From the sequence record PQ010280.1: a stretch of 39,709 nucleotides of DNA. One strand, written 5' to 3'. The translations under genes and the position numbers were made by a program. The notes below the pieces were generated by a model. That model ran no database searches. It saw only the letters and a program-made list of their open reading frames with translations, and had not been told where the DNA came from. Numbering within the stretch: the stretch's first letter is position 1; the number at the start of each line of letters is the position of its first letter. The stretch is from Escherichia phage vB_EcoM_CQ615. Positions 311 to 39,087 of this stretch are shown here, one piece after another.

Positions 311-333
311 TAATACAACTCACTATAAGGAGA
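311..333 (+). promoter_or_regulatory. Phage RNAP promoter phiOL-like
   Basis: taatacaactcactataaggaga, one mismatch from the T7 23-mer consensus; same position as T7 phiOL. Confidence 0.8.
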
Positions 334-6209: not shown

Positions 6210-6232
6210 TAATACGACTCACTATAGAGGGG
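6210..6232 (+). promoter_or_regulatory. Phage RNAP promoter phi1.1A
   Basis: taatacgactcactatagagggg. Confidence 0.85.
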
Positions 6233-6236
6233 ACAA

Positions 6237-6276
6237 ACTCAAGGTCATTCGCAAGAGTGGCCTTTATGATTGACCT
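6237..6276 (+). promoter_or_regulatory. Putative RNase III site (R1.1-like)
   Basis: actcaaggtcattcgcaagagtggcctttatgattgacc. Confidence 0.5.
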
Positions 6277-6285
6277 TCTTCCGGT

Positions 6286-6308
6286 TAATACGACTCACTA
6301 TAGGAGAA
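6286..6308 (+). promoter_or_regulatory. Phage RNAP promoter phi1.1B
   Basis: taatacgactcactataggagaa. Confidence 0.85.
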
Positions 6309-6516: not shown

Positions 6517-6774
6517 ATGGGACGTTTATACAGTGGGAACTTGAATGACTTCAAGGATGCTTGCAACAGGCTCTACCAGTTAGACTTTGCTGTTATTTGT
6601 GATGAATGGCATGATGCTTACAAACGCCTTGCGTGTATACGTCTACGCGTAGAGGACAGGGCTGGAAATCTGATTGATACCAATACGTTCTGTCACCACG
6701 ATGAAGACGTCTTGTACAATACGTGTACTGACTGGCTGAACCGTATGTACGACCAGTTGAAGGACTGGAAGTAA
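6517..6774 (+). CDS. 1.2: gp1.2, inhibitor of host dGTPase (Dgt)
   Basis: 85 aa from the internal ATG of track ORF 6478..6774; MGRLYSGNL...MYDQLKDWK conserved with T7 gp1.2. Confidence 0.85.
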   Translation: MGRLYSGNLNDFKDACNRLYQLDFAVICDEWHDAYKRLACIRLRVEDRAGNLIDTNTFCHHDEDVLYNTCTDWLNRMYDQLKDWK

Positions 6775-6794
6775 TACGACTCAGTATAGGGACA
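6772..6794 (+). promoter_or_regulatory. Phage RNAP promoter phi1.3
   Basis: taatacgactcagtatagggaca. Confidence 0.8.
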
Positions 6795-9329: not shown

Positions 9330-9332
<3 letters not shown>

Positions 9333-9352
9333 TACGACTCACTATTGGGGGA
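9330..9352 (+). promoter_or_regulatory. Phage RNAP promoter phi2.5
   Basis: taatacgactcactattggggga; variant initiating region. Confidence 0.75.
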
Positions 9353-13367: not shown

Positions 13368-13408
13368 AGAGTGGTATACTCAAGGTCGCCCAAGTGGTGG
13401 CCTTCATT
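13366..13408 (+). promoter_or_regulatory. Putative RNase III site (R4.7-like)
   Basis: tactcaaggtcgcccaagtggtggccttcatt. Confidence 0.45.
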
Positions 13409-13412
13409 AATA

Positions 13413-13435
13413 CTATTCGACTCACTATAGGAGAT
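13413..13435 (+). promoter_or_regulatory. Phage RNAP promoter phi4.7
   Basis: ctattcgactcactataggagat. Confidence 0.7.
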
Positions 13436-13441
13436 ATTACC

Positions 13442-13849
13442 ATGCGTGACCCTAAAGTTATCCAAGCAGAAATCGCTAAGTTGGAAGCTGAACTGGAGGA
13501 TGTTAAGTACCATGAAGCTAAGACTCGCTCCGCTGTTCATATCTTGAAGAACTTAGGTTGGACTTGGACAAGACAGACTGGCTGGAAGAAACCAGAAGTT
13601 ACCAAGCTGAGCCACAAGGTGTTCGATAAGGACACTATGACCCACATCAAGGCTGGTGATTGGGTTAAGGTTGACATGGGAGTTGTTGGTGGGTACGGCT
13701 ATGTCCGCTCAGTGAGTGGTAAATACGCACAAGTGTCATACATCACTGGCGTTACTCCGCGAGGAGCAATCGTTGCCGACAAGACCAACATGATTCACAC
13801 AGGCTTCTTGACGGTTGTATCGTATGAAGAGATTGTTAAGTCACGATAA
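13442..13849 (+). CDS. 4.7: gp4.7-like protein
   Basis: 135 aa from ATG 13442 (the track ORF extends upstream); MRDPKVIQAEIAKLEAELEDVKYHEAKTRSAV... Confidence 0.8.
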   Translation: MRDPKVIQAEIAKLEAELEDVKYHEAKTRSAVHILKNLGWTWTRQTGWKKPEVTKLSHKVFDKDTMTHIKAGDWVKVDMGVVGGYGYVRSVSGKYAQVSYITGVTPRGAIVADKTNMIHTGFLTVVSYEEIVKSR

Positions 13850-13867: not shown

Positions 13868-15982
13868 ATGATCGTTTCTGACATCGAAGCTAACGCCCTC
13901 TTAGAGAGCGTCACTAAGTTCCACTGCGGGGTTATCTACGACTACTCCACCGCTGAGTACGTAAGCTACCGTCCGAGTGACTTCGGTGCGTATCTGGATG
14001 CGCTGGAAGCCGAGGTTGCACGAGGCGGTCTTATTGTGTTCCACAACGGTCACAAGTATGACGTTCCCGCATTGACCAAACTGGCAAAGCTACAATTGAA
14101 CCGAGAGTTCCACCTTCCTCGTGAGAACTGTATCGACACCCTTGTGCTGTCACGCTTGATTCACTCTAACCTAAAGGACACCGATATGGGTCTTCTTCGT
14201 TCCGGTAAACTGCCGGGGAAACGATTTGGGTCTCACGCTTTGGAGGCGTGGGGCTATCGCTTAGGTGAAATGAAGGGTGAATACAAAGATGACTTTAAGC
14301 GTATGCTTGAAGAGCAGGGTGAAGAATACATCGACGGAATGGAATGGTGGAACTTCAACGAAGAGATGATGGACTATAACGTTCAGGACGTTGTGGTCAC
14401 TAAGGCTCTCCTTGAGAAGCTACTCTCTGACAAACATTACTTCCCTCCTGAGATTGACTTTACGGACGTAGGTTACACTACGTTCTGGTCAGAATCCCTT
14501 GAGGCCGTTGATGTTGAACATCGCGCTGCATGGCTACTCGCTAAGCAAGAGCGCAATGGATTCCCGTTTGACACAAAAGCAATCGAAGAGTTGTACGTAG
14601 AGTTAGCTGCTAGACGCTCTGAGTTGCTACGTAAATTGACCGAAACGTTTGGCTCGTGGTATCAACCTAAAGGTGGCACCGAAATGTTCTGCCATCCACG
14701 AACAGGTAAGCCGCTGCCTAAATACCCTCGCATTAAGACACCTAAAGTTGGTGGCATCTTTAAGAAGCCTAAGAACAAGGCACAGCGAGAAGGCCGTGAG
14801 CCTTGCGAACTGGATACCCGCGAGTACGTTGCTGGTGCTCCGTATACTCCAGTAGAGCACGTAGTGTTTAACCCTTCGTCTCGTGACCACATCCAGAAGA
14901 AACTCCAAGAGGCAGGATGGGTCCCCACGAAGTACACCGATAAGGGTGCGCCTGTGGTGGACGATGAGGTACTCGAAGGAGTACGTGTAGATGACCCTGA
15001 GAAGCAAGCTGCTATCGACCTCATTAAAGAGTACCTGATGATTCAGAAGCGAATCGGACAGTCTGCTGAGGGAGACAAGGCGTGGCTTCGTTACGTTGCT
15101 GAGGATGGTAAAATTCATGGTTCTGTTAATCCCAACGGCGCTGTTACTGGGCGCGCTACTCACGCTTTCCCTAACCTCGCACAGATACCCGGTGTCCGTT
15201 CTCCTTATGGTGATAAGTGCCGCGCTGCTTTTGGCGCTGAACATCACCTAGACGGTATTACTGGTAAGCCTTGGGTTCAGGCAGGCATCGACGCATCCGG
15301 CCTTGAGTTGCGCTGCTTGGCCCACTTCATGGCTCGCTTTGATAACGGTGAGTACGCTCACGAGATTCTTAACGGTGACATCCACACTAAGAACCAGATG
15401 GCTGCCGAATTGCCTACCCGAGATAACGCTAAGACGTTCATCTATGGGTTCCTTTATGGTGCTGGTGATGAGAAGATTGGACAGATTGTCGGTGCTGGTA
15501 AAGAGCGCGGTAAGGAACTCAAGAAGAAATTCCTTGAGAACACCCCAGCGATTGCCGCACTCCGAGAGTCTATCCAACAAACACTTGTTGAGTCCTCTCA
15601 GTGGGTAGCTGGTGAACAGCAAGTCAAGTGGAAACGTCGGTGGATTAAAGGTCTGGATGGTCGTAAGGTACACGTTCGTAGTCCTCACGCTGCGCTTAAC
15701 ACCCTTCTACAATCTGCTGGTGCGCTTATCTGCAAACTGTGGATTATCAAGACCGAAGAGATGCTCGTAGAGAAAGGCTTGAAGCATGGCTGGGATGGGG
15801 ACTTTGCGTACATGGCATGGGTACATGACGAAATCCAAGTAGGTTGTCGTACCGAAGAGATTGCCCAGGTGGTCATTGAGACCGCACAGGAAGCGATGCG
15901 CTGGGTAGGGGACCACTGGAACTTCCGGTGCCTTCTTGATACCGAAGGTAAGATGGGTCCTAATTGGGCCGTATGTCACTAA
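13868..15982 (+). CDS. 5: DNA polymerase with 3'-5' exonuclease and thioredoxin-binding loop (gp5)
   Basis: 704 aa, [26 protein letters not shown]..., family A pol motifs; T7 gp5 length and sequence. Confidence 0.98.
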
Positions 15983-16001
15983 TTCTATAGGAGAGATAGT
16001 C

Positions 16002-16232
16002 ATGGCTACTTGGAAATATAGGATAGTAGAACTTGAAACCACAGAGGGTACTGTCCTGTATTCGCCACAGTTCAGGCACAAGTGGTTCCCGTTCTGGAGT
16101 CACTTTTGCAGCTATGTAGACGAGCGACGACTTGTGTTTGCCGACATCGAAGATGCTAAACGGTTTCTTAGCGAAACACGCGCTAACGATGAACCAGAAG
16201 TTAAGAAAGTAAGAAAAATCCATTCACTCTAA
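16002..16232 (+). CDS. Hypothetical 76-aa protein in the slot T7 uses for gene 5.3
   Basis: ATG 16002 with SD ataggagagatag; MATWKYRIVELETTEGTVLYSPQFRHKWFPFWSHFCSYVDERRLVFADIEDAKRFLSETRANDEPEVKKVRKIHSL; no HNH motif; no family recognised. Confidence 0.6.
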   Translation: MATWKYRIVELETTEGTVLYSPQFRHKWFPFWSHFCSYVDERRLVFADIEDAKRFLSETRANDEPEVKKVRKIHSL

Positions 16233-16245
16233 AGGAGAAATTATT

Positions 16246-16545
16246 ATGGCTATGACCAAGAAATTTAAAGTGTCCTTCGACGTTACCGCTAAGATGACAT
16301 CTGACGTTCAGGCAATCTTAGAGAAAGATATTCTGCACCTGTGTAAGCAGGTTGGCTCCGGCGCTATTGTTCCTAACGGTAAGCAGAAAGAGATGATTGT
16401 CCAGTTCCTGACGCATGGTATGGAAGGACTGATGACCTTCGTTGTTCGAACAGCTTTCCGTGAGGCTATCAAAGATATGCACGAAGAGTATTCCGATAAG
16501 GACTCCTTCAAGCTATCTCCTGCTACTGTACGGGAGGTGTTCTAA
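16246..16545 (+). CDS. 5.5: gp5.5 (H-NS-binding protein in T7)
   Basis: 99 aa, MAMTKKFKVSFDVTAKMTSDVQAILEKDILHLCKQVG... Confidence 0.9.
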   Translation: MAMTKKFKVSFDVTAKMTSDVQAILEKDILHLCKQVGSGAIVPNGKQKEMIVQFLTHGMEGLMTFVVRTAFREAIKDMHEEYSDKDSFKLSPATVREVF

Positions 16546-16754
16546 TGTCCGACTATCTGAAAGTGCTGCAAGCAATCAAGAGTTGCCCTAAGACTTTCCA
16601 GTCAAACTATGTGCGTAACAATGCGAGCCTCGTAGCGGAGGCCGCTTCCCGTGGTCACATCTCATGTCTGACTACAAGCGGACGCAATGGTGGTGCTTGG
16701 GAAATCACTGCTTCTGGTACTCGCTTTCTGAAACGAATGGGAGGGTGTGTCTGA
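16545..16754 (+). CDS. 5.7: gp5.7-like protein
   Basis: 69 aa, MSDYLKVLQAIKSCPKTFQSNYVRNNASLVAEAASRGHISCLTTSGRNGGAWEITASGTRFLKRMGGCV. Confidence 0.8.
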   Translation: MSDYLKVLQAIKSCPKTFQSNYVRNNASLVAEAASRGHISCLTTSGRNGGAWEITASGTRFLKRMGGCV

Positions 16755-16912
16755 TGGTACGTGACACTGTAACAATTCCTCGTGATGCGTGGAACGATAT
16801 GCAGGGTTATATTGATTCTCTGGAACGTGAGAACGATAGCCTTAAGAACCAACTTATGGAAGCTGACGAGTACGTGGCTGAACTAGAGGAGAAACTTAAT
16901 GGCACTTCTTGA
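16754..16912 (+). CDS. 5.9: gp5.9, RecBCD inhibitor
   Basis: 52 aa from the internal ATG overlapping the 5.7 stop; MVRDTVTIPRDAWNDMQGYIDSLERENDSLKNQLMEADEYVAELEEKLNGTS (acidic). Confidence 0.85.
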   Translation: MVRDTVTIPRDAWNDMQGYIDSLERENDSLKNQLMEADEYVAELEEKLNGTS

Positions 16913-17801
16913 CCTAAAACAATTCTACGAGTTACGTGAAGGCTGTGACGACAAGGGTATCCTCGTTATGGACGGTGACTGGTTGGTATTCCAAGCGATG
17001 AGTGCTGCTGAGTTTGATGCCTCGTGGGAGGAAGAGATTTGGCACCGCTGCTGTGACCACGCTAAGGCACGTCAGATTCTTGAGGATTCCATCAAGTCCT
17101 ATGAGACCCGTAAGAAGGCTTGGGTTGGTGCTCCGATTGTCCTTGCGTTCACAGATAGCGTCAACTGGCGTAAAGAACTGGTGGACCCGAACTACAAGGC
17201 TAACCGTAAGGCCACGAAGAAACCTGTAGGTTACTTTGAGTTCCTTGATGCTCTCTTTGAGCGTGAAGAGTTCTATTGTATTCGTGAGCCGATGCTTGAG
17301 GGCGATGATGTTATGGGAGTGATTGCTTCCAATCCGTCTGCATTCGGTGCCCGTAAAGCTGTAATTATCTCGTGCGATAAGGACTTTAAGACCATCCCTA
17401 ACTGTGACTTCCTGTGGTGTACCACTGGTAACATCCTGACACAGACAGAAGAATCAGCGGACTGGTGGCACCTATTCCAGACAATCAAGGGCGACATCAC
17501 TGATGGTTACTCAGGTATTGCTGGGTGGGGCGATACCGCTGAGGACTTCCTGAATAACCCATTCATTACCGAGCCTAAGACCTCTGTGCTTAAGTCTGGT
17601 AAGAATAAGGGGCAGGAGGTAACTAAGTGGGTTAAACGCGACCCTGAGCCACATGAGACGCTTTGGGACTGCATTAAGTCAATCGGAGCGAAGGCTGGTA
17701 TGACCGAAGAGGATGTTATTAAACAGGGCCAGATGGCTCGCATCCTACGGTTCAACGAGTACAACTTTATTGACAAGGAGATTTACCTGTGGAGACCGTA
17801 G
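16899..17801 (+). CDS. 6: 5'-3' exonuclease (gp6)
   Basis: 300 aa, MALLDLKQFYELREGCDDKGILVMDGDWLVFQAM..., FEN-like. Confidence 0.97.
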   Translation: MALLDLKQFYELREGCDDKGILVMDGDWLVFQAMSAAEFDASWEEEIWHRCCDHAKARQILEDSIKSYETRKKAWVGAPIVLAFTDSVNWRKELVDPNYKANRKATKKPVGYFEFLDALFEREEFYCIREPMLEGDDVMGVIASNPSAFGARKAVIISCDKDFKTIPNCDFLWCTTGNILTQTEESADWWHLFQTIKGDITDGYSGIAGWGDTAEDFLNNPFITEPKTSVLKSGKNKGQEVTKWVKRDPEPHETLWDCIKSIGAKAGMTEEDVIKQGQMARILRFNEYNFIDKEIYLWRP

Positions 17802-17902: not shown

Positions 17903-17963
17903 TAAACTCAAGGTCCCTAAATTAATACGACTCACTATAGGGAGATAGGGGCCTTTATGATTA
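17903..17963 (+). promoter_or_regulatory. Putative RNase III site (R6.5-like) enclosing phi6.5
   Basis: aaactcaaggtccctaaat...ggggcctttatgattatt flanking the promoter. Confidence 0.4.
17923..17945 (+). promoter_or_regulatory. Phage RNAP promoter phi6.5 (class III consensus)
   Basis: taatacgactcactatagggaga. Confidence 0.85.
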
Positions 17964-19246: not shown

Positions 19247-20857
19247 ATGGCTGAGAAGCGTACAGGTCTAGCCGAGGAAGGTGCAAAGTCGGTCTATGAG
19301 CGATTAAAGAACGACCGCGCTCCTTATGAGACTCGTGCTCAAAACTGCGCTCAGTACACCATTCCGTCCCTCTTCCCTAAGGACTCCGACAACGCATCTA
19401 CAGACTACACAACTCCGTGGCAAGCTGTGGGTGCTCGCGGTCTCAATAACTTGGCCTCTAAGCTCATGCTGGCTCTCTTCCCGATGCAAACGTGGATGAA
19501 ACTAACCATCTCTGAGTTCGAGGCCAAACAGTTACTGAACGACCCCGATGGACTCGCTAAGGTTGATGAGGGCCTATCAATGGTAGAGCGTATCATCATG
19601 AACTACATTGAGTCTAACAGCTACCGAGTGACTCTCTTTGAGGCTCTCAAGCAGTTAGTCGTTGCTGGCAACGTCCTGCTGTACCTACCGGAACCAGAAG
19701 GGTCGAACTACAATCCCATGAAGCTGTACCGATTGTCTTCTTATGTGGTCCAACGAGACGCATTCGGCAACGTTCTGCAAATGGTGACTCGTGACCAGAT
19801 AGCTTTTGGTGCTCTCCCTGAGGACATCCGTAAGGCTGTAGAAGGTCAAGGTGGTGAGAAGAAAGCCGATGAGACCGTCGACGTGTACACTCACATCTAT
19901 CTGGATGAGGACTCAGGTGAATACCTCCGGTACGAAGAGGTCGAGGGTATGGAAGTTCAAGGCTCCGATGGGTCTTACCCTAAAGAGGCTTGCCCATACA
20001 TCCCGATTCGAATGGTTAGGCTTGACGGTGAATCCTATGGTCGTTCGTACATTGAGGAATACTTAGGTGACTTACGGTCCCTTGAGAATCTCCAAGAGGC
20101 TATCGTCAAGATGTCCATGATTAGCTCTAAGGTTATCGGCTTAGTGAATCCTGCTGGTATCACCCAGCCACGCCGACTGACCAAAGCTCAGACTGGTGAC
20201 TTCGTTACTGGTCGTCCAGAAGACATCTCGTTCCTCCAACTGGAGAAGCAAGCAGACTTTACTGTAGCTAAAGCCGTAAGTGACGCTATCGAGGCTCGCC
20301 TTTCGTTTGCCTTTATGTTGAACTCTGCTGTTCAGCGCACTGGTGAGCGTGTGACCGCCGAAGAGATTCGGTATGTCGCTTCTGAACTTGAAGATACTTT
20401 AGGCGGTGTCTACTCCATCCTTTCTCAAGAATTACAATTGCCTCTGGTACGAGTGCTCTTGAAGCAACTACAAGCCACGCAACAGATTCCTGAGTTACCT
20501 AAGGAAGCCGTAGAGCCAACCATTAGTACAGGTCTGGAAGCAATTGGTCGAGGACAAGACCTTGATAAGCTGGAACGCTGTGTCACTGCGTGGGCTGCTC
20601 TAGCTCCTATGCGCGATGACCCTGACATCAACCTTGCAATGATTAAGTTGCGCATTGCGAACGCTATCGGTATTGACACTTCTGGTATCCTTCTTACAGA
20701 AGAACAGAAGCAACAGAAGATGGCCCAACAGTCTATGCAAATGGGTATGGATAATGGTGCCGCTGCGCTGGCTCAAGGTATGGCTGCACAGGCTACAGCT
20801 TCACCTGAGGCTATGGCTGCTGCTGCTGATTCCGTAGGTCTACAGCCGGGCATTTAA
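19247..20857 (+). CDS. 8: Portal (head-tail connector) protein (gp8)
   Basis: 536 aa, MAEKRTGLAEEGAKSVYERLKNDRAPYETRAQNCAQYTIPSLFP... Confidence 0.97.
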   Translation: MAEKRTGLAEEGAKSVYERLKNDRAPYETRAQNCAQYTIPSLFPKDSDNASTDYTTPWQAVGARGLNNLASKLMLALFPMQTWMKLTISEFEAKQLLNDPDGLAKVDEGLSMVERIIMNYIESNSYRVTLFEALKQLVVAGNVLLYLPEPEGSNYNPMKLYRLSSYVVQRDAFGNVLQMVTRDQIAFGALPEDIRKAVEGQGGEKKADETVDVYTHIYLDEDSGEYLRYEEVEGMEVQGSDGSYPKEACPYIPIRMVRLDGESYGRSYIEEYLGDLRSLENLQEAIVKMSMISSKVIGLVNPAGITQPRRLTKAQTGDFVTGRPEDISFLQLEKQADFTVAKAVSDAIEARLSFAFMLNSAVQRTGERVTAEEIRYVASELEDTLGGVYSILSQELQLPLVRVLLKQLQATQQIPELPKEAVEPTISTGLEAIGRGQDLDKLERCVTAWAALAPMRDDPDINLAMIKLRIANAIGIDTSGILLTEEQKQQKMAQQSMQMGMDNGAAALAQGMAAQATASPEAMAAAADSVGLQPGI

Positions 20858-20877
20858 TACGACTCACTATAGGGAGA
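20855..20877 (+). promoter_or_regulatory. Phage RNAP promoter phi9 (class III)
   Basis: taatacgactcactatagggaga overlapping the gene 8 stop. Confidence 0.85.
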
Positions 20878-21891: not shown

Positions 21892-21914
21892 TAATACGAC
21901 TCACTATAGGGAGA
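21892..21914 (+). promoter_or_regulatory. Phage RNAP promoter phi10 (class III) with gene 10 leader
   Basis: taatacgactcactatagggaga followed by ccacaacggtttccctctagaaat...aagaaggagacatacatATG. Confidence 0.9.
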
Positions 21915-26271: not shown

Positions 26272-26294
26272 TAATACGACTCACTATAGGGAGA
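26272..26294 (+). promoter_or_regulatory. Phage RNAP promoter phi13 (class III)
   Basis: taatacgactcactatagggaga. Confidence 0.85.
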
Positions 26295-32600: not shown

Positions 32601-33566
32601 GATGCGGCACGTCAAGGTATGCTAGGGGACGTTATTAGTGCCACCCTAACAGGTAAGACTACCCGCTGGGAGAAAGAAGGATTCCTTCGTGGCGCCTCCG
32701 TAACTCCTGAGCAGATGGCTGGCATCAAGTCTCTCATCAAGGAACATATGGTACGTGGTGAGGACGGGAAGTTTACCGTCAAGGACAAGCAAGCGTTCTC
32801 TATGGACCCACGGGCTATGGACTTATGGCGACTTGCTGACAAGGTAGCTGATGAGGCAATGCTGCGTCCACACAAGGTGTCCTTACAGGATTCCCATGCG
32901 TTCGGAGCATTAGGTAAAATGGTTATGCAGTTTAAGTCTTTCACTATCAAGTCACTTAACTCTAAGTTCCTGCTAACCTTCTACGATGGGTACAAGAACA
33001 ACCGAGCGATTGACGCTGCGTTGACTGGTATCATCTCTATGGGTCTCGCTGGGGGTTACTACGCTATGGCTGCACACGTCAAAGCATATGGGATGCCTAA
33101 GGAAAAACGTAGGGAGTACTTGGAGAGAGCACTGGACCCAACCATGATTGCCCACGCTTCGTTGTCTCGTAGTTCTCAATTGGGTGCTCCTTTGGCTATG
33201 GCTGACCTAGTTGGCGGTGTTTTAGGGTTCGAGTCCTCCAAGATGGCTCGCTCTACGATTCTACCTAAGGACACCATGAAGGAACGTGACCCAAACAAAC
33301 CGTACACCTCTAGAGAGGTAATGGGCGCTATGGGTTCAAACCTTCTGGAACAGATGCCTTCTGCTGGCTTTGTGGCTAACGTAGGGGCTACCTTAATGAA
33401 TGCTGCTGGCGTGGTAAACTCGCCTAACAAAGCAACTGAGCAGGACTTCATGACTGGCTTGATGAACTCTACCAAGGAGTTAGTACCTAACGACCCTCTT
33501 ACTCAACAGCTTGTGATTAAGATTTATGAGGCCAATGGTGTTAACTTGAGGGAACGTAGGAAATAA
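29610..33566 (+). CDS. 16: Internal core protein D with N-terminal lytic transglycosylase domain (gp16)
   Basis: 1318 aa; N-terminal SLT-like motif (VAWTESRFVPTAKSKTGPLGMMQFTKATAKALG). Confidence 0.96.
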   Translation: MDKYDKNVPSDYDGLFQKAADANGVSYDLLRKVAWTESRFVPTAKSKTGPLGMMQFTKATAKALGLRVTDGPDDDRLNPELAINAAAKHLAGLVGKFDGDELKAALAYNQGEGRLGNPQLEAYSKGDFASISEEGRNYMRSLLDVAKSPMAGQLETFGGITPKGKGIPAEVGLDGIGHKQKVTQELPESTSFDVKGIEQEAPAKPFAKDFWETHGETLDEYNSRSTFFGFKNAAEAELSNSVAGMAFRAGRLDNGFDVFKDTITPTRWNSHIWTPEELEKIRTEVKNPAYINVVTGGSPENLDDLIKLANENFENDSLAAEAGLGAKLSAGIIGAGVDPLSYVPMVGVTGKGFKLINKALVVGAESAALNVASEGLRTSVAGGDADYAGAALGGFVFGAGMSAISDAVAAGLKRSKPEAEFDNEFIGPMMRMEARETARNANSADLSRMNTENMKFEGEHNGVPYEDLSTEKGAVVLHDGSVLSASNPINPKTLKEFSEVDPEKAARGIQLAGFTEIGLKTLGSDNADIRRVAIDLVRSPTGMQSGASGKFGATASDIHERLHGTDQRTYNDLYKAMSDAMKDPEFSTGGAKMSREETRYTIYRRAALAIERPELQKVLTPSERIVMDIIKRHFDTKRELMENPAIFGNTKAVSIFPESRHKGTYVPHVYDRHAKALMIQRYGAEGLQEGIARSWMNSYVSRPEVKARVDEMLKEVHGVKEVTPEMVEKYAMDKAYGISHSDQFTNSSIIEENIEGLVGIENNSFLEARNLFDSDLSITMPDGQQFSVNDLRDFDMFRIMPAYDRRINGDIAIMGSTGKTTKELKDEILALKAKAEGDGKKTGEVHALMDTVKILTGRARRNQDTVWETSLRSINDLGFFAKNAYMGAQNLTEIAGMIATGNVRALGHGIPILRDTLYKSKPVSAKELKELHASLFGKEVDQLIRPKRADIVQRLREATDTGPAVANIVGTLKYSTQELAARSPWTKMLNGTTNYLLDAARQGMLGDVISATLTGKTTRWEKEGFLRGASVTPEQMAGIKSLIKEHMVRGEDGKFTVKDKQAFSMDPRAMDLWRLADKVADEAMLRPHKVSLQDSHAFGALGKMVMQFKSFTIKSLNSKFLLTFYDGYKNNRAIDAALTGIISMGLAGGYYAMAAHVKAYGMPKEKRREYLERALDPTMIAHASLSRSSQLGAPLAMADLVGGVLGFESSKMARSTILPKDTMKERDPNKPYTSREVMGAMGSNLLEQMPSAGFVANVGATLMNAAGVVNSPNKATEQDFMTGLMNSTKELVPNDPLTQQLVIKIYEANGVNLRERRK

Positions 33567-33586
33567 TACGACTCACTATAGGGAGA
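33564..33586 (+). promoter_or_regulatory. Phage RNAP promoter phi17 (class III)
   Basis: taatacgactcactatagggaga overlapping the gene 16 stop. Confidence 0.85.
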
Positions 33587-39064: not shown

Positions 39065-39087
39065 TAATTCGACTCACTATAGGGAGA
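39065..39087 (+). promoter_or_regulatory. Phage RNAP promoter phiOR-like
   Basis: taattcgactcactatagggaga (one mismatch from consensus). Confidence 0.75.

What the first reader, a model, noticed from the sequence alone, without database searches (positions are those of the whole stretch)
16002..16232. Unrecognised 76-aa ORF replaces the gene 5.3 slot after the DNA polymerase
Between gene 5 and 5.5, T7 carries gene 5.3 (HNH-like). Here that slot holds a different small protein (MATWKYRIVELETTEGTVLYSPQFRHKWFPFWSHFCSYVDERRLVFADIEDAKRFLSETRANDEPEVKKVRKIHSL) with good SD and no HNH signature. It lies in the block that in T7 encodes host-takeover and counter-defense proteins (5.5 H-NS binder, 5.7, 5.9 RecBCD inhibitor), so a host-interaction or anti-defense function is plausible but unproven.
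Basis: partly seen in the sequence, partly recalled or inferred. Interest (0 to 1): 0.6.

Follow-up and report, generated by a model that had tools for sequence, protein, structure and literature searches.

The report
Conserved small accessory gene after T7-like polymerase
The 76-codon reading frame is a real gene of a T7-like phage; it belongs to an already catalogued, widespread family of tiny phage proteins of unknown function that comes, goes and swaps alleles in one fixed genome slot, which fits a host-interaction role but does not prove it.

Summary
The ORF at 16002-16232 (+) exists as described: ATG start, AGGAG 8 nt upstream, and a position between the DNA polymerase gene and gene 5.5 of a T7-type phage. 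It is not unrecognised. It matches PHROG 18049 (E 7e-27, unknown function). Homologues occupy the same slot in at least five Studiervirinae genera (gp5.1 of Dev2, 5.01 of CR8). A profile search finds 214 clusters of ~70-aa phage proteins sharing the motif KYRI..E..G..YyPQyk..FW...F.sleeA..fI. No Pfam family, solved structure or characterised protein matches it. AlphaFold gives a small beta-sheet plus one helix.

The slot is polymorphic: empty in most close relatives, a PD-(D/E)XK gene 5.3 in T7 (not HNH), this family in a few. The empty form equals a deletion between two ribosome-binding-site repeats that flank the gene. Among close alleles omega is ~0.6, against ~0.01 for genes 5.7 and 6. The changes avoid the family-conserved core, and deeply diverged alleles sit in near-identical flanks.

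Best reading, inferred and not shown: a dispensable, fast-evolving middle-gene binder of a host or defence factor. It is a new member of a known, uncharacterised family. Interest is modest.

The parts
13868..15982 (+). Gene 5, T7-type DNA polymerase (704 aa); conserved upstream flank of the slot
   Evidence: 98% aa identity to phage NC-A gp5
15985..15994 (+). Upstream repeat CTATAGGAGA. It contains the ORF's Shine-Dalgarno AGGAG (15989-15993), 8 nt before the ATG
16002..16232 (+). 76-aa ORF, member of PHROG 18049 (equivalent to gp5.1 of Dev2 and 5.01 of CR8). Predicted beta-hairpin 4-12/18-26, short strands 32-46, helix 49-61, and a conserved N-D-E-P-E-V-K tail
16229..16238 (+). Downstream repeat CTAAAGGAGA, which overlaps the ORF stop codon and is the SD of gene 5.5. 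A deletion between the two repeats (244 bp) reproduces exactly the empty-slot junction of phage 04922B
16246..16545 (+). Gene 5.5 (PF11247, H-NS-binding family); downstream flank, itself allelically dimorphic among close relatives
16545..16754 (+). Gene 5.7 homologue (99-100% aa identity among relatives; omega 0.01)
16754..16912 (+). Gene 5.9 homologue (RecBCD inhibitor family PF25708). The start is inferred from the 52-aa gene in relatives
16899..17801 (+). Gene 6 exonuclease, end of the co-transcribed middle block
17923..17945 (+). First perfect T7 RNA polymerase promoter downstream (phi6.5 position). No promoter match lies between gene 5 and gene 6, so the ORF is read as part of the class II (middle) transcripts

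Best explanation
What it is (confidence about 0.9). The ORF is a genuine protein-coding accessory gene of a Teseptimavirus, a T7-type phage that uses T7 promoters. It belongs to the uncharacterised family PHROG 18049, called gp5.1 or 5.01 in related phages. That family is one branch of a much larger, Pfam-less superfamily of ~70-residue phage proteins with the motif KYRI-x-E..G...YyPQyk....FW...F-s-l-e-e-A-x-x-f-I.

How it most likely works (inferred; confidence about 0.4).
- It is co-transcribed by T7 RNA polymerase with genes 5 to 6 in the middle period and translated from its own AGGAG.
- It folds into a compact non-enzymatic domain: a beta-hairpin, two or three short strands and one helix. 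It has no catalytic motif, no metal or cysteine cluster and no membrane segment.
- It acts stoichiometrically by binding a host macromolecule, a host factor or an anti-phage defence component, in the way its neighbours gp5.5, gp5.7 and gp5.9 do.
- The invariant aromatic core (W4, Y6, R7, Y20, P22, Q23, F31, W32) keeps the fold.
- The hairpin turn (13-15), the 33-48 segment and the subfamily-specific tail (N-D-E-P-E-V-K...) would be the contact surfaces that change as targets change.
- The gene is dispensable under many conditions. It is lost by deletion between the two flanking ribosome-binding-site repeats and is replaced by divergent alleles through recombination in the conserved flanks.
For: Shown:
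- The ORF, its SD and its slot.
- Family membership.
- The same slot in Teseptimavirus (NC-A, EG1), Berlinvirus (BP12A), Kayfunavirus (Dev2), Caroctavirus (CR8), Elunavirus (SK1) and two metagenomic T7-like contigs.
- 214 clusters at E<=1e-3 among 1.84 billion representatives, almost all stand-alone proteins of 54-148 aa, median 76.
- AlphaFold models with the same topology from two alignments (pLDDT 83 and 74).
- Slot polymorphism: most close relatives are empty, T7 and 64795_ec1 carry gene 5.3, and a few carry this family.
- Dev2 has gp5.1 while the near-identical SH4 and SH5 lack it (PMC4925675).
- The empty junction equals a deletion between the two repeats.
- Omega is 0.62 for six close alleles, against 0.010 for gp5.7 and 0.012 for gp6. 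Pairwise dN/dS is 0.28-1.67, against 0.02-0.05 for gp5.
- The 22 variable residues avoid positions conserved in distant homologues (Fisher p 0.017, Mann-Whitney p 0.004) and cluster in the turn, the 33-48 segment and the tail.
- EG1 has flanks 93-100% identical but an allele only 50% identical. L011 has gp5 85% identical but an ORF only 34% identical.
- The adjacent host-interaction gene 5.5 shows the same allele dimorphism.
- No copy was found in 185,579 bacterial species genomes or in plasmids, as expected for a gene of virulent phages.
Against: - There is no direct evidence of any partner, phenotype or expression.
- Omega is not significantly different from 1 (p 0.083; six sequences, 76 codons). 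Recombination violates the single-tree assumption, so relaxed constraint on a marginally useful gene would look much the same.
- The fixed position next to the replication genes, kept across genera and near RNAP/primase in Pectobacterium phage PP1, fits a replication-linked role equally well.
- No anti-defence library was available. PADLOC, a defence library, gave nothing.
- Silas et al.'s accessory-gene screen supplements do not contain the family's characteristic peptides.
Confidence: 0.4

Rival explanations
1. A replication or DNA-metabolism accessory factor. It would be a small nucleic-acid- or replisome-binding domain, possibly a miniature WGR-like fold, that assists or modulates the phage DNA polymerase or replisome under some conditions.
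For: - It lies immediately downstream of gene 5 in every Studiervirinae carrier, with start codons abutting or overlapping the gene 5 stop in BP12A and CR8.
- In PP1 it lies between the RNAP and primase/helicase genes.
- In other phages it lies among nucleotide-metabolism genes: dNMP kinase and NUDIX.
- There is a weak profile similarity to the WGR domain of PARP3: PDB profile E 0.1, hhalign probability 44%, and one of 82 relatives hits Pfam WGR at E 0.04.
Against: - Most Teseptimaviruses, including T7, replicate without it.
- Omega is about 50 times that of the replication genes beside it.
- The WGR hit was picked post hoc from a database-wide scan.
- Neighbours outside T7-like phages are not consistent.
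Confidence: 0.2
2. A weapon or shield in phage-versus-phage competition, or a companion of mobile elements. For example, a small DNA-binding protein that guards the gene 5 / 5.5 junction against the homing endonucleases that use this slot, or a relic DNA-binding module of such an endonuclease.
For: - The slot holds endonuclease-type genes in T7 (PD-(D/E)XK) and in phiYeO3-12/SH2, where it is annotated as a homing endonuclease (PMC4925675).
- Three database records label homologues 'putative homing endonuclease'.
- The alleles behave as exchangeable cassettes.
Against: - There is no nuclease or known DNA-binding domain. The AP2 comparison gives hhalign probability below 1%.
- It is unrelated to T7 gp5.3.
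- The family is a stand-alone ~70-aa protein in hundreds of clusters, never fused to a nuclease.
- The 'homing endonuclease' labels look like positional annotation transfer.
Confidence: 0.1
3. A decaying or functionless ORF: a leftover that is drifting and on its way to deletion, with no present role.
For: - Omega is not significantly below 1 among close alleles.
- Loss is frequent.
- It is unannotated in the NC-A RefSeq record.
Against: - The reading frame is intact with no frameshift or stop in all six close alleles and in homologues down to 30% identity.
- The SD is kept in most carriers.
- Substitutions avoid family-conserved positions.
- Long-range identity (54% to Dev2) equals that of the DNA polymerase (55%).
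- The PHROG match is E 7e-27.
Confidence: 0.05

Closest known systems
PHROG 18049, annotated as gp5.1 of Cronobacter phage Dev2, 5.01 of Citrobacter phage CR8 and hypothetical proteins of Salmonella phage BP12A, Escherichia phages EG1, P483 and PhiV-1, and Shigella phage A7
   Same: Full-length HMM match (E 6.9e-27). Length of 73-77 aa. The same slot between gene 5 and gene 5.5. The same invariant residues and the same N-D-E-P-E-V-K tail. The Foldseek match to the CR8 model has TM 0.89.
   Different: Identity to these annotated members is only 45-54%. The window allele belongs to a separate sub-lineage seen so far only in NC-A (87%, unannotated there) and five metagenomic sequences (81-89%).
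Related uncharacterised PHROGs 12822, 24605, 8363, 34121 and 13062. These are small proteins of Vequintavirinae (GAP31), KVP40-like Vibrio phages, Pectobacterium phages PP1 and phiTE, and many metagenomic phages
   Same: The same KYRI..G..YyPQ..FW...F.sleeA motif, size and predicted fold.
   Different: They have a different genome context (early or nucleotide-metabolism gene clusters) and no DEPEVK tail. Seven of 165 carry an N-terminal membrane anchor and one is a tandem duplicate.
T7 gene 5.3
   Same: It occupies the same slot, bounded by the same conserved flanks and the same gene 5.5 ribosome-binding site. It is non-essential in T7 (bioRxiv 10.1101/2024.11.17.624010).
   Different: It is 118 aa and matches PD-(D/E)XK endonuclease-like PF11645 (E 1e-10). 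It has no detectable relation to the 76-aa protein (hhalign probability 1%).
T7 gp5.5, gp5.7 and gp5.9 (small host-interaction proteins encoded just downstream)
   Same: Small size, middle-gene expression and no enzymatic motifs. gp5.5 shares the allele-replacement behaviour.
   Different: There is no sequence or fold relation, and their targets (H-NS, RecBCD and so on) are known from experiments whereas none is known here. gp5.7 is almost invariant (omega 0.01), unlike this ORF.
Small beta-sheet-plus-helix domains of unknown or adaptor function: UPF0339/DUF1508 (YegP-like), E. coli YaiA, the PH-like domain of EROS, and the WGR domain
   Different: None reaches a score that indicates homology: Foldseek against the PDB has a best E of 0.26, and no Pfam match was found. 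The defining motifs are absent.

Membership tests
PHROG 18049 (Studiervirinae gp5.1 / 5.01) | Significant full-length match to the family HMM | tested here: met
   E 6.9e-27, residues 3-76 on profile positions 2-75 of 75. 68 of 82 superfamily members also match it.
PHROG 18049 (Studiervirinae gp5.1 / 5.01) | Conserved position between the DNA polymerase gene and gene 5.5 | tested here: met
   The same slot in NC-A, EG1, BP12A, Dev2, CR8, SK1 and contigs L011, L016, L018, L019 and L021.
T7 gp5.3 / PD-(D/E)XK endonuclease (PF11645) | Match to PF11645 or to T7 gp5.3 | tested here: not met
   No Pfam hit at E<=10. hhalign of the family profile against T7 gp5.3 gives probability 1%.
HNH or other homing endonuclease (the label given to homologues in three GenBank records) | A nuclease domain (HNH, GIY-YIG, LAGLIDADG or PD-(D/E)XK) | tested here: not met
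   No Pfam or NCBIfam nuclease match for the protein or for 82 relatives. At 76 aa with a single Cys, there is no metal-binding motif.
WGR domain (PF05406) | Pfam match above threshold, the conserved Trp-Gly-Arg motif, and a WGR fold | tested here: inconclusive
AP2 / integrase-arm type DNA-binding domain | Profile similarity to an AP2 domain | tested here: not met
UPF0339 / DUF1508 (YegP-like) | Sequence match to the family, or a fold match clearly above background | tested here: inconclusive
Known anti-phage defence proteins (PADLOC-DB) | Match to any defence-system model | tested here: not met
   0 families at E<=10.
Known anti-defence proteins (Ocr, Gad, Tad, Acb, Acr and others) | Match to a curated anti-defence family | not testable with these tools
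   No anti-defence library (dbAPIS, AntiDefenseFinder) was available. Pfam, PHROGs, BFVD and PDB searches returned only uncharacterised proteins.

The most novel reading that the evidence does not exclude
The ORF represents a large superfamily of ~70-residue phage proteins that no domain database describes. The superfamily has at least 214 clusters at 50% identity, spans six PHROGs, has no Pfam entry and has no solved structure. In this reading its members are rapidly evolving inhibitors of a host defence or host factor, that is, a new anti-defence or host-takeover family spread across podo- and myoviruses of many hosts. The T7-like branch would be an experimentally tractable entry point.
Probability: 0.25. 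Interest if true: 0.7.

Novelty: new member of a known kind. Interest (0 to 1): 0.35.

Why it matters
- If the protein binds a host or defence component, it would add a factor to the best-studied counter-defence block of any phage (T7 genes 5.5-5.9).
- It would also give a function to a superfamily of hundreds of tiny phage proteins that no domain database currently describes.
- The T7 system would make the test easy, because natural ORF-plus, ORF-minus and allele-swapped phages already exist.
- As it stands, the finding corrects annotation. The gene is missed in the NC-A RefSeq record and mislabelled 'homing endonuclease' in others.
- It also documents a neat mechanism of gene loss by recombination between ribosome-binding sites.

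Tried and rejected
- **Domain libraries.** Pfam, NCBIfam and PADLOC scans of the protein gave nothing useful. The only hit was an NCBIfam N-glycosylase match at E 0.088, far below its cutoff.
- **Pfam scan of 82 relatives.** It gave only scattered weak hits (NDUS4 for 4 members at 2e-3, WGR for 1, Arm-DNA-bind for 1). These appear to share a strand-then-helix 'F-x-S/T-x-E-E-A' motif (my reading, seen in the one alignment printed), so I treat them as noise.
- **Third word-indexed protein search**, with the broad profile. It added only one protein and no domain fusions.
- **Profile comparisons.** Homology to T7 gp5.3 was rejected and homology to AP2 was rejected. WGR was left as an untested lead.
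- **The search for related loci.** With a narrower alignment it returned only the already known isolates in IMG/VR and nothing in bacterial genomes. There were no plasmid matches.
- **Literature.** The supplements of the accessory-gene screen of Silas et al. (bioRxiv 10.1101/2023.04.06.535777) do not contain the family's peptides. The only mention found of gp5.1 is its absence from SH4 and SH5 relative to Dev2.
- **RNA element or promoter in the slot.** There were no Rfam hits in the whole window. No T7 promoter lies between genes 5 and 6. Sigma-70-like and terminator-like sites were at chance level.
- **Antisense 87-aa ORF.** It is not conserved.

Full report
**The observation**

The window is an almost complete genome of a T7-type phage. 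Its best overall match is Escherichia phage 04922B, at 94.8% identity over the first 20 kb. It carries eleven sites within three mismatches of the T7 promoter consensus, five of them perfect.

ATG is at 16002 and TAA at 16230-16232, and the 76 residues are identical to the quoted translation. AGGAG lies at 15989-15993, 8 nt upstream. Gene 5 (704-aa DNA polymerase) stops at 15982. Gene 5.5 (PF11247, E 1e-65) starts at 16246 and is followed by 5.7, 5.9 (PF25708) and the gene 6 exonuclease.

The ORF alone would not be evidence of a gene. 67 ORFs of at least 30 aa lie in the surrounding 6 kb, among them an antisense 87-aa ORF across the same DNA. That antisense ORF is interrupted or lacks a start codon in close relatives. 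The sense ORF is conserved.

**It is a member of a catalogued family**

The protein matches PHROG 18049 over its whole length (E 6.9e-27) and PHROG 8363 more weakly. Both have unknown function. Pfam, NCBIfam and PADLOC give nothing.

tblastn against 50,697 phage records finds 33 full-length matches:
- Phage NC-A at 87% identity, where the gene is not annotated (the RefSeq record has a gap between gp20 and gp21).
- Matches of 45-54% identity in phages such as Salmonella phage BP12A (Berlinvirus), Cronobacter phage Dev2 (Kayfunavirus, 'gp5.1'), Citrobacter phage CR8 (Caroctavirus, '5.01') and Escherichia phage EG1 (Teseptimavirus).
- A 35% match in Pantoea phage SK1 (Elunavirus).

In every record and contig I examined, the gene lies between the DNA polymerase gene and gene 5.5. 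In SK1 the downstream gene is annotated only as hypothetical. The same holds for the metagenomic T7-like contigs that carry homologues of 30-89% identity. So 'unrecognised' is not correct. The gene is known as a hypothetical protein, and only its function is unknown.

**A much wider superfamily**

A profile of 19 sequences was searched against 1.84 billion cluster representatives. It finds 214 clusters at E<=1e-3. Apart from one spurious repeat protein, they are 54-148 aa long with a median of 76.

They share the motif KYRI-x-E...G...YyPQyk....FW, then a variable segment, then F-s-l-e-e-A-x-x-f-I. Members fall into PHROGs 18049, 12822, 24605, 8363, 34121 and 13062, all of unknown function, and none has a credible Pfam domain.

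Cultured carriers include:
- GAP31-like Vequintavirinae and KVP40-like Vibrio phages.
- Pectobacterium phages PP1 and POP72. In PP1 the gene lies between the RNA polymerase and primase/helicase genes.
- Pectobacterium phage phiTE and Vibrio phage 1.170.O.

Seven of 165 proteins carry an N-terminal hydrophobic anchor and one is a tandem duplicate. No fusion to a known domain was seen. Contexts outside T7-like phages are clusters of small early genes or nucleotide-metabolism genes. The T7-like branch was not found in bacterial genomes or plasmids.

**Structure**

AlphaFold2 with the 19-sequence alignment gives pLDDT 83 and pTM 0.67. It predicts a beta-hairpin (4-12, 18-26), short strands between 32 and 46, a helix at 49-61 and a less confident tail. 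The 82-sequence alignment gives the same topology at pLDDT 74, with the tail (65-76) below 50.

The family profile hits the PARP3 WGR domain at E 0.1 in the PDB sequence search, and hhalign gives 44% probability. The W-G-R motif is absent and the hit was chosen post hoc, so this is a lead only. AP2 and T7 gp5.3 are rejected.

The protein is 9.3 kDa with pI 7.9. It is rich in aromatics (12 of 76 residues), has a single cysteine and has no membrane segment. Nothing suggests catalysis.

**The slot and how it changes**

An alignment of the junction shows three states among close relatives:
- Empty: 04922B, IME390, Pila, N30, phiA1122, YpP-Y and others. This was the commonest natural state among the records listed.
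- T7-type gene 5.3: T7 and 64795_ec1.
- This family: NC-A, EG1 and the window.

T7 gp5.3 matches PD-(D/E)XK PF11645 (E 1e-10), not HNH. It is non-essential (bioRxiv 10.1101/2024.11.17.624010).

The cassette is bracketed by CTATAGGAGA (15985-15994, its own SD) and CTAAAGGAGA (16229-16238, the SD of gene 5.5). The empty junction of 04922B, CTATAGGAGAAATTATTATG, is exactly what a 244-bp deletion between these repeats would leave.

The literature reports the same polymorphism in Kayfunavirus. Dev2 has gp5.1, while SH4 and SH5, whose polymerase is 99% identical, lack it (PMC4925675).

**How it evolves**

I compared five to six close alleles (window, NC-A and four metagenomic contigs).

| Gene | Pairwise dN/dS | One-ratio omega |
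|---|---|---|
| 76-aa ORF | 0.28-1.67 | 0.62 (not significantly below 1, p 0.083) |
| gp5 | 0.02-0.05 | not fitted |
| gp5.7 | about 0.01 | 0.010 |
| gp6 | about 0.01 | 0.012 |

The sample is small and the gene trees disagree, which indicates recombination, so these numbers are indicative only.

The changes are not random. The 22 variable residues lie in the hairpin turn (13-15), the 33-48 segment, the exposed helix face and the tail. They avoid positions that are conserved in the distant Studiervirinae homologues (1 of 17 conserved positions varies, against 21 of 59 others; Fisher p 0.017, Mann-Whitney p 0.004). The frame is intact in every allele. This argues against simple decay and for a constrained core with fast-changing surfaces.

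Over longer distances the alleles are uncoupled from their flanks:
- EG1 has gp5.5 93% and gp5.7 100% identical to the window, but the ORF is only 50% identical.
- Contig L011 has gp5 at 85% but the ORF at 34%.
- Dev2 has gp5 at 55% and the ORF at 54%.

The neighbouring gene 5.5, an experimentally established host-interaction gene according to the T7 record, behaves the same way. Two contigs with gp5, gp5.7 and gp6 98-100% identical to the window carry a gp5.5 only 50-53% identical.

**Interpretation**

With high confidence, this is a real, dispensable accessory gene of the middle (class II) transcription unit and a member of PHROG 18049. No T7 promoter match lies between gene 5 and gene 6, and the next perfect promoter is at 17923.

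The mechanism is inferred. The likeliest is a non-enzymatic binder of a host factor or defence component, like its downstream neighbours. It would be gained, lost and swapped as hosts change. I put this at about 0.4.

A replication-linked nucleic-acid or replisome-binding role is the main rival, at about 0.2. It is supported by the persistent position next to replication genes and by the weak WGR lead. It is weakened by the gene's dispensability and its relaxed or diversifying evolution. A role in competition with the endonuclease genes that use the same slot (0.1) and plain decay (0.05) are less likely.

**Novelty and score**

The family is already catalogued and annotated as hypothetical, so this is a new member (a distinct sub-lineage) of a known, uncharacterised kind. 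The broader point is that a superfamily of hundreds of ~70-aa phage proteins has no Pfam entry, no structure and no function, and that its T7-like branch shows an accessory-gene signature in a tractable system. That point is of moderate interest, but nothing here is surprising to a T7 specialist. Interest is 0.35.

Noticed in passing
window 16246-16545 (gene 5.5); loci L018 3245-3541 and L019 3245-3541: Gene 5.5 is allelically dimorphic. Two metagenomic phages whose gp5, gp5.7 and gp6 are 98-100% identical to the window carry a gp5.5 only 50-53% identical (dN about 0.44). The variable patch therefore spans both the 76-aa ORF and gene 5.5, between almost invariant flanks.
   Followed up: partly
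L009 699-1055 (T7 gene 5.3, V01146 16483-16839): T7 gp5.3 matches Pfam PF11645, a PD-(D/E)XK endonuclease (E 1e-10). It is not an HNH domain as the finding assumed.
   Followed up: yes
L001 3205-3435 (NC_048163 15883-16113): The RefSeq and GenBank records of phage NC-A leave the homologous 76-aa gene unannotated. There is a 265-bp 'intergenic' gap between the DNA polymerase gene and gene 5.5.
   Followed up: yes
GenBank MZ501064 (ErnstBeyeler), MZ501055 (CarlSpitteler), OP161218 (vB_YenP_WW1): Homologues of the 76-aa protein are labelled 'putative homing endonuclease' in these records. No nuclease domain is detectable in the family, so the label looks like positional transfer from gene 5.3.
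   Followed up: partly
window 15985-15994 and 16229-16238: Two near-identical ribosome-binding-site repeats (CTATAGGAGA and CTAAAGGAGA) bracket the gene. Recombination between them gives exactly the empty-slot sequence seen in phage 04922B, a simple route for repeated gene loss.
   Followed up: yes
window 311-333, 6210-6308, 6772-6794, 9330-9352, 17923-17945, 20855-20877, 21892-21914, 26272-26294, 33564-33586, 39065-39087: There are eleven matches to the T7 RNA polymerase promoter consensus, five of them perfect, against none expected by chance. The phage therefore uses T7-specific promoters and the window is close to a whole genome.
   Followed up: no
proteins P0028, P0031, P0102, P0120, P0157, P0160, P0166; P0053: A minority of distant family members carry an N-terminal hydrophobic (membrane-anchor-like) segment in front of the domain. 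One (P0053) is a tandem duplication of the domain.
   Followed up: partly
window 13394-13849: The ORF upstream of gene 5 (151 aa counted from a GTG) gave no Pfam hit here. The corresponding genes of relatives are recorded as PF26857 (Phage_T7_4_7) with 130-172 aa, so the true start in the window is uncertain.
   Followed up: no
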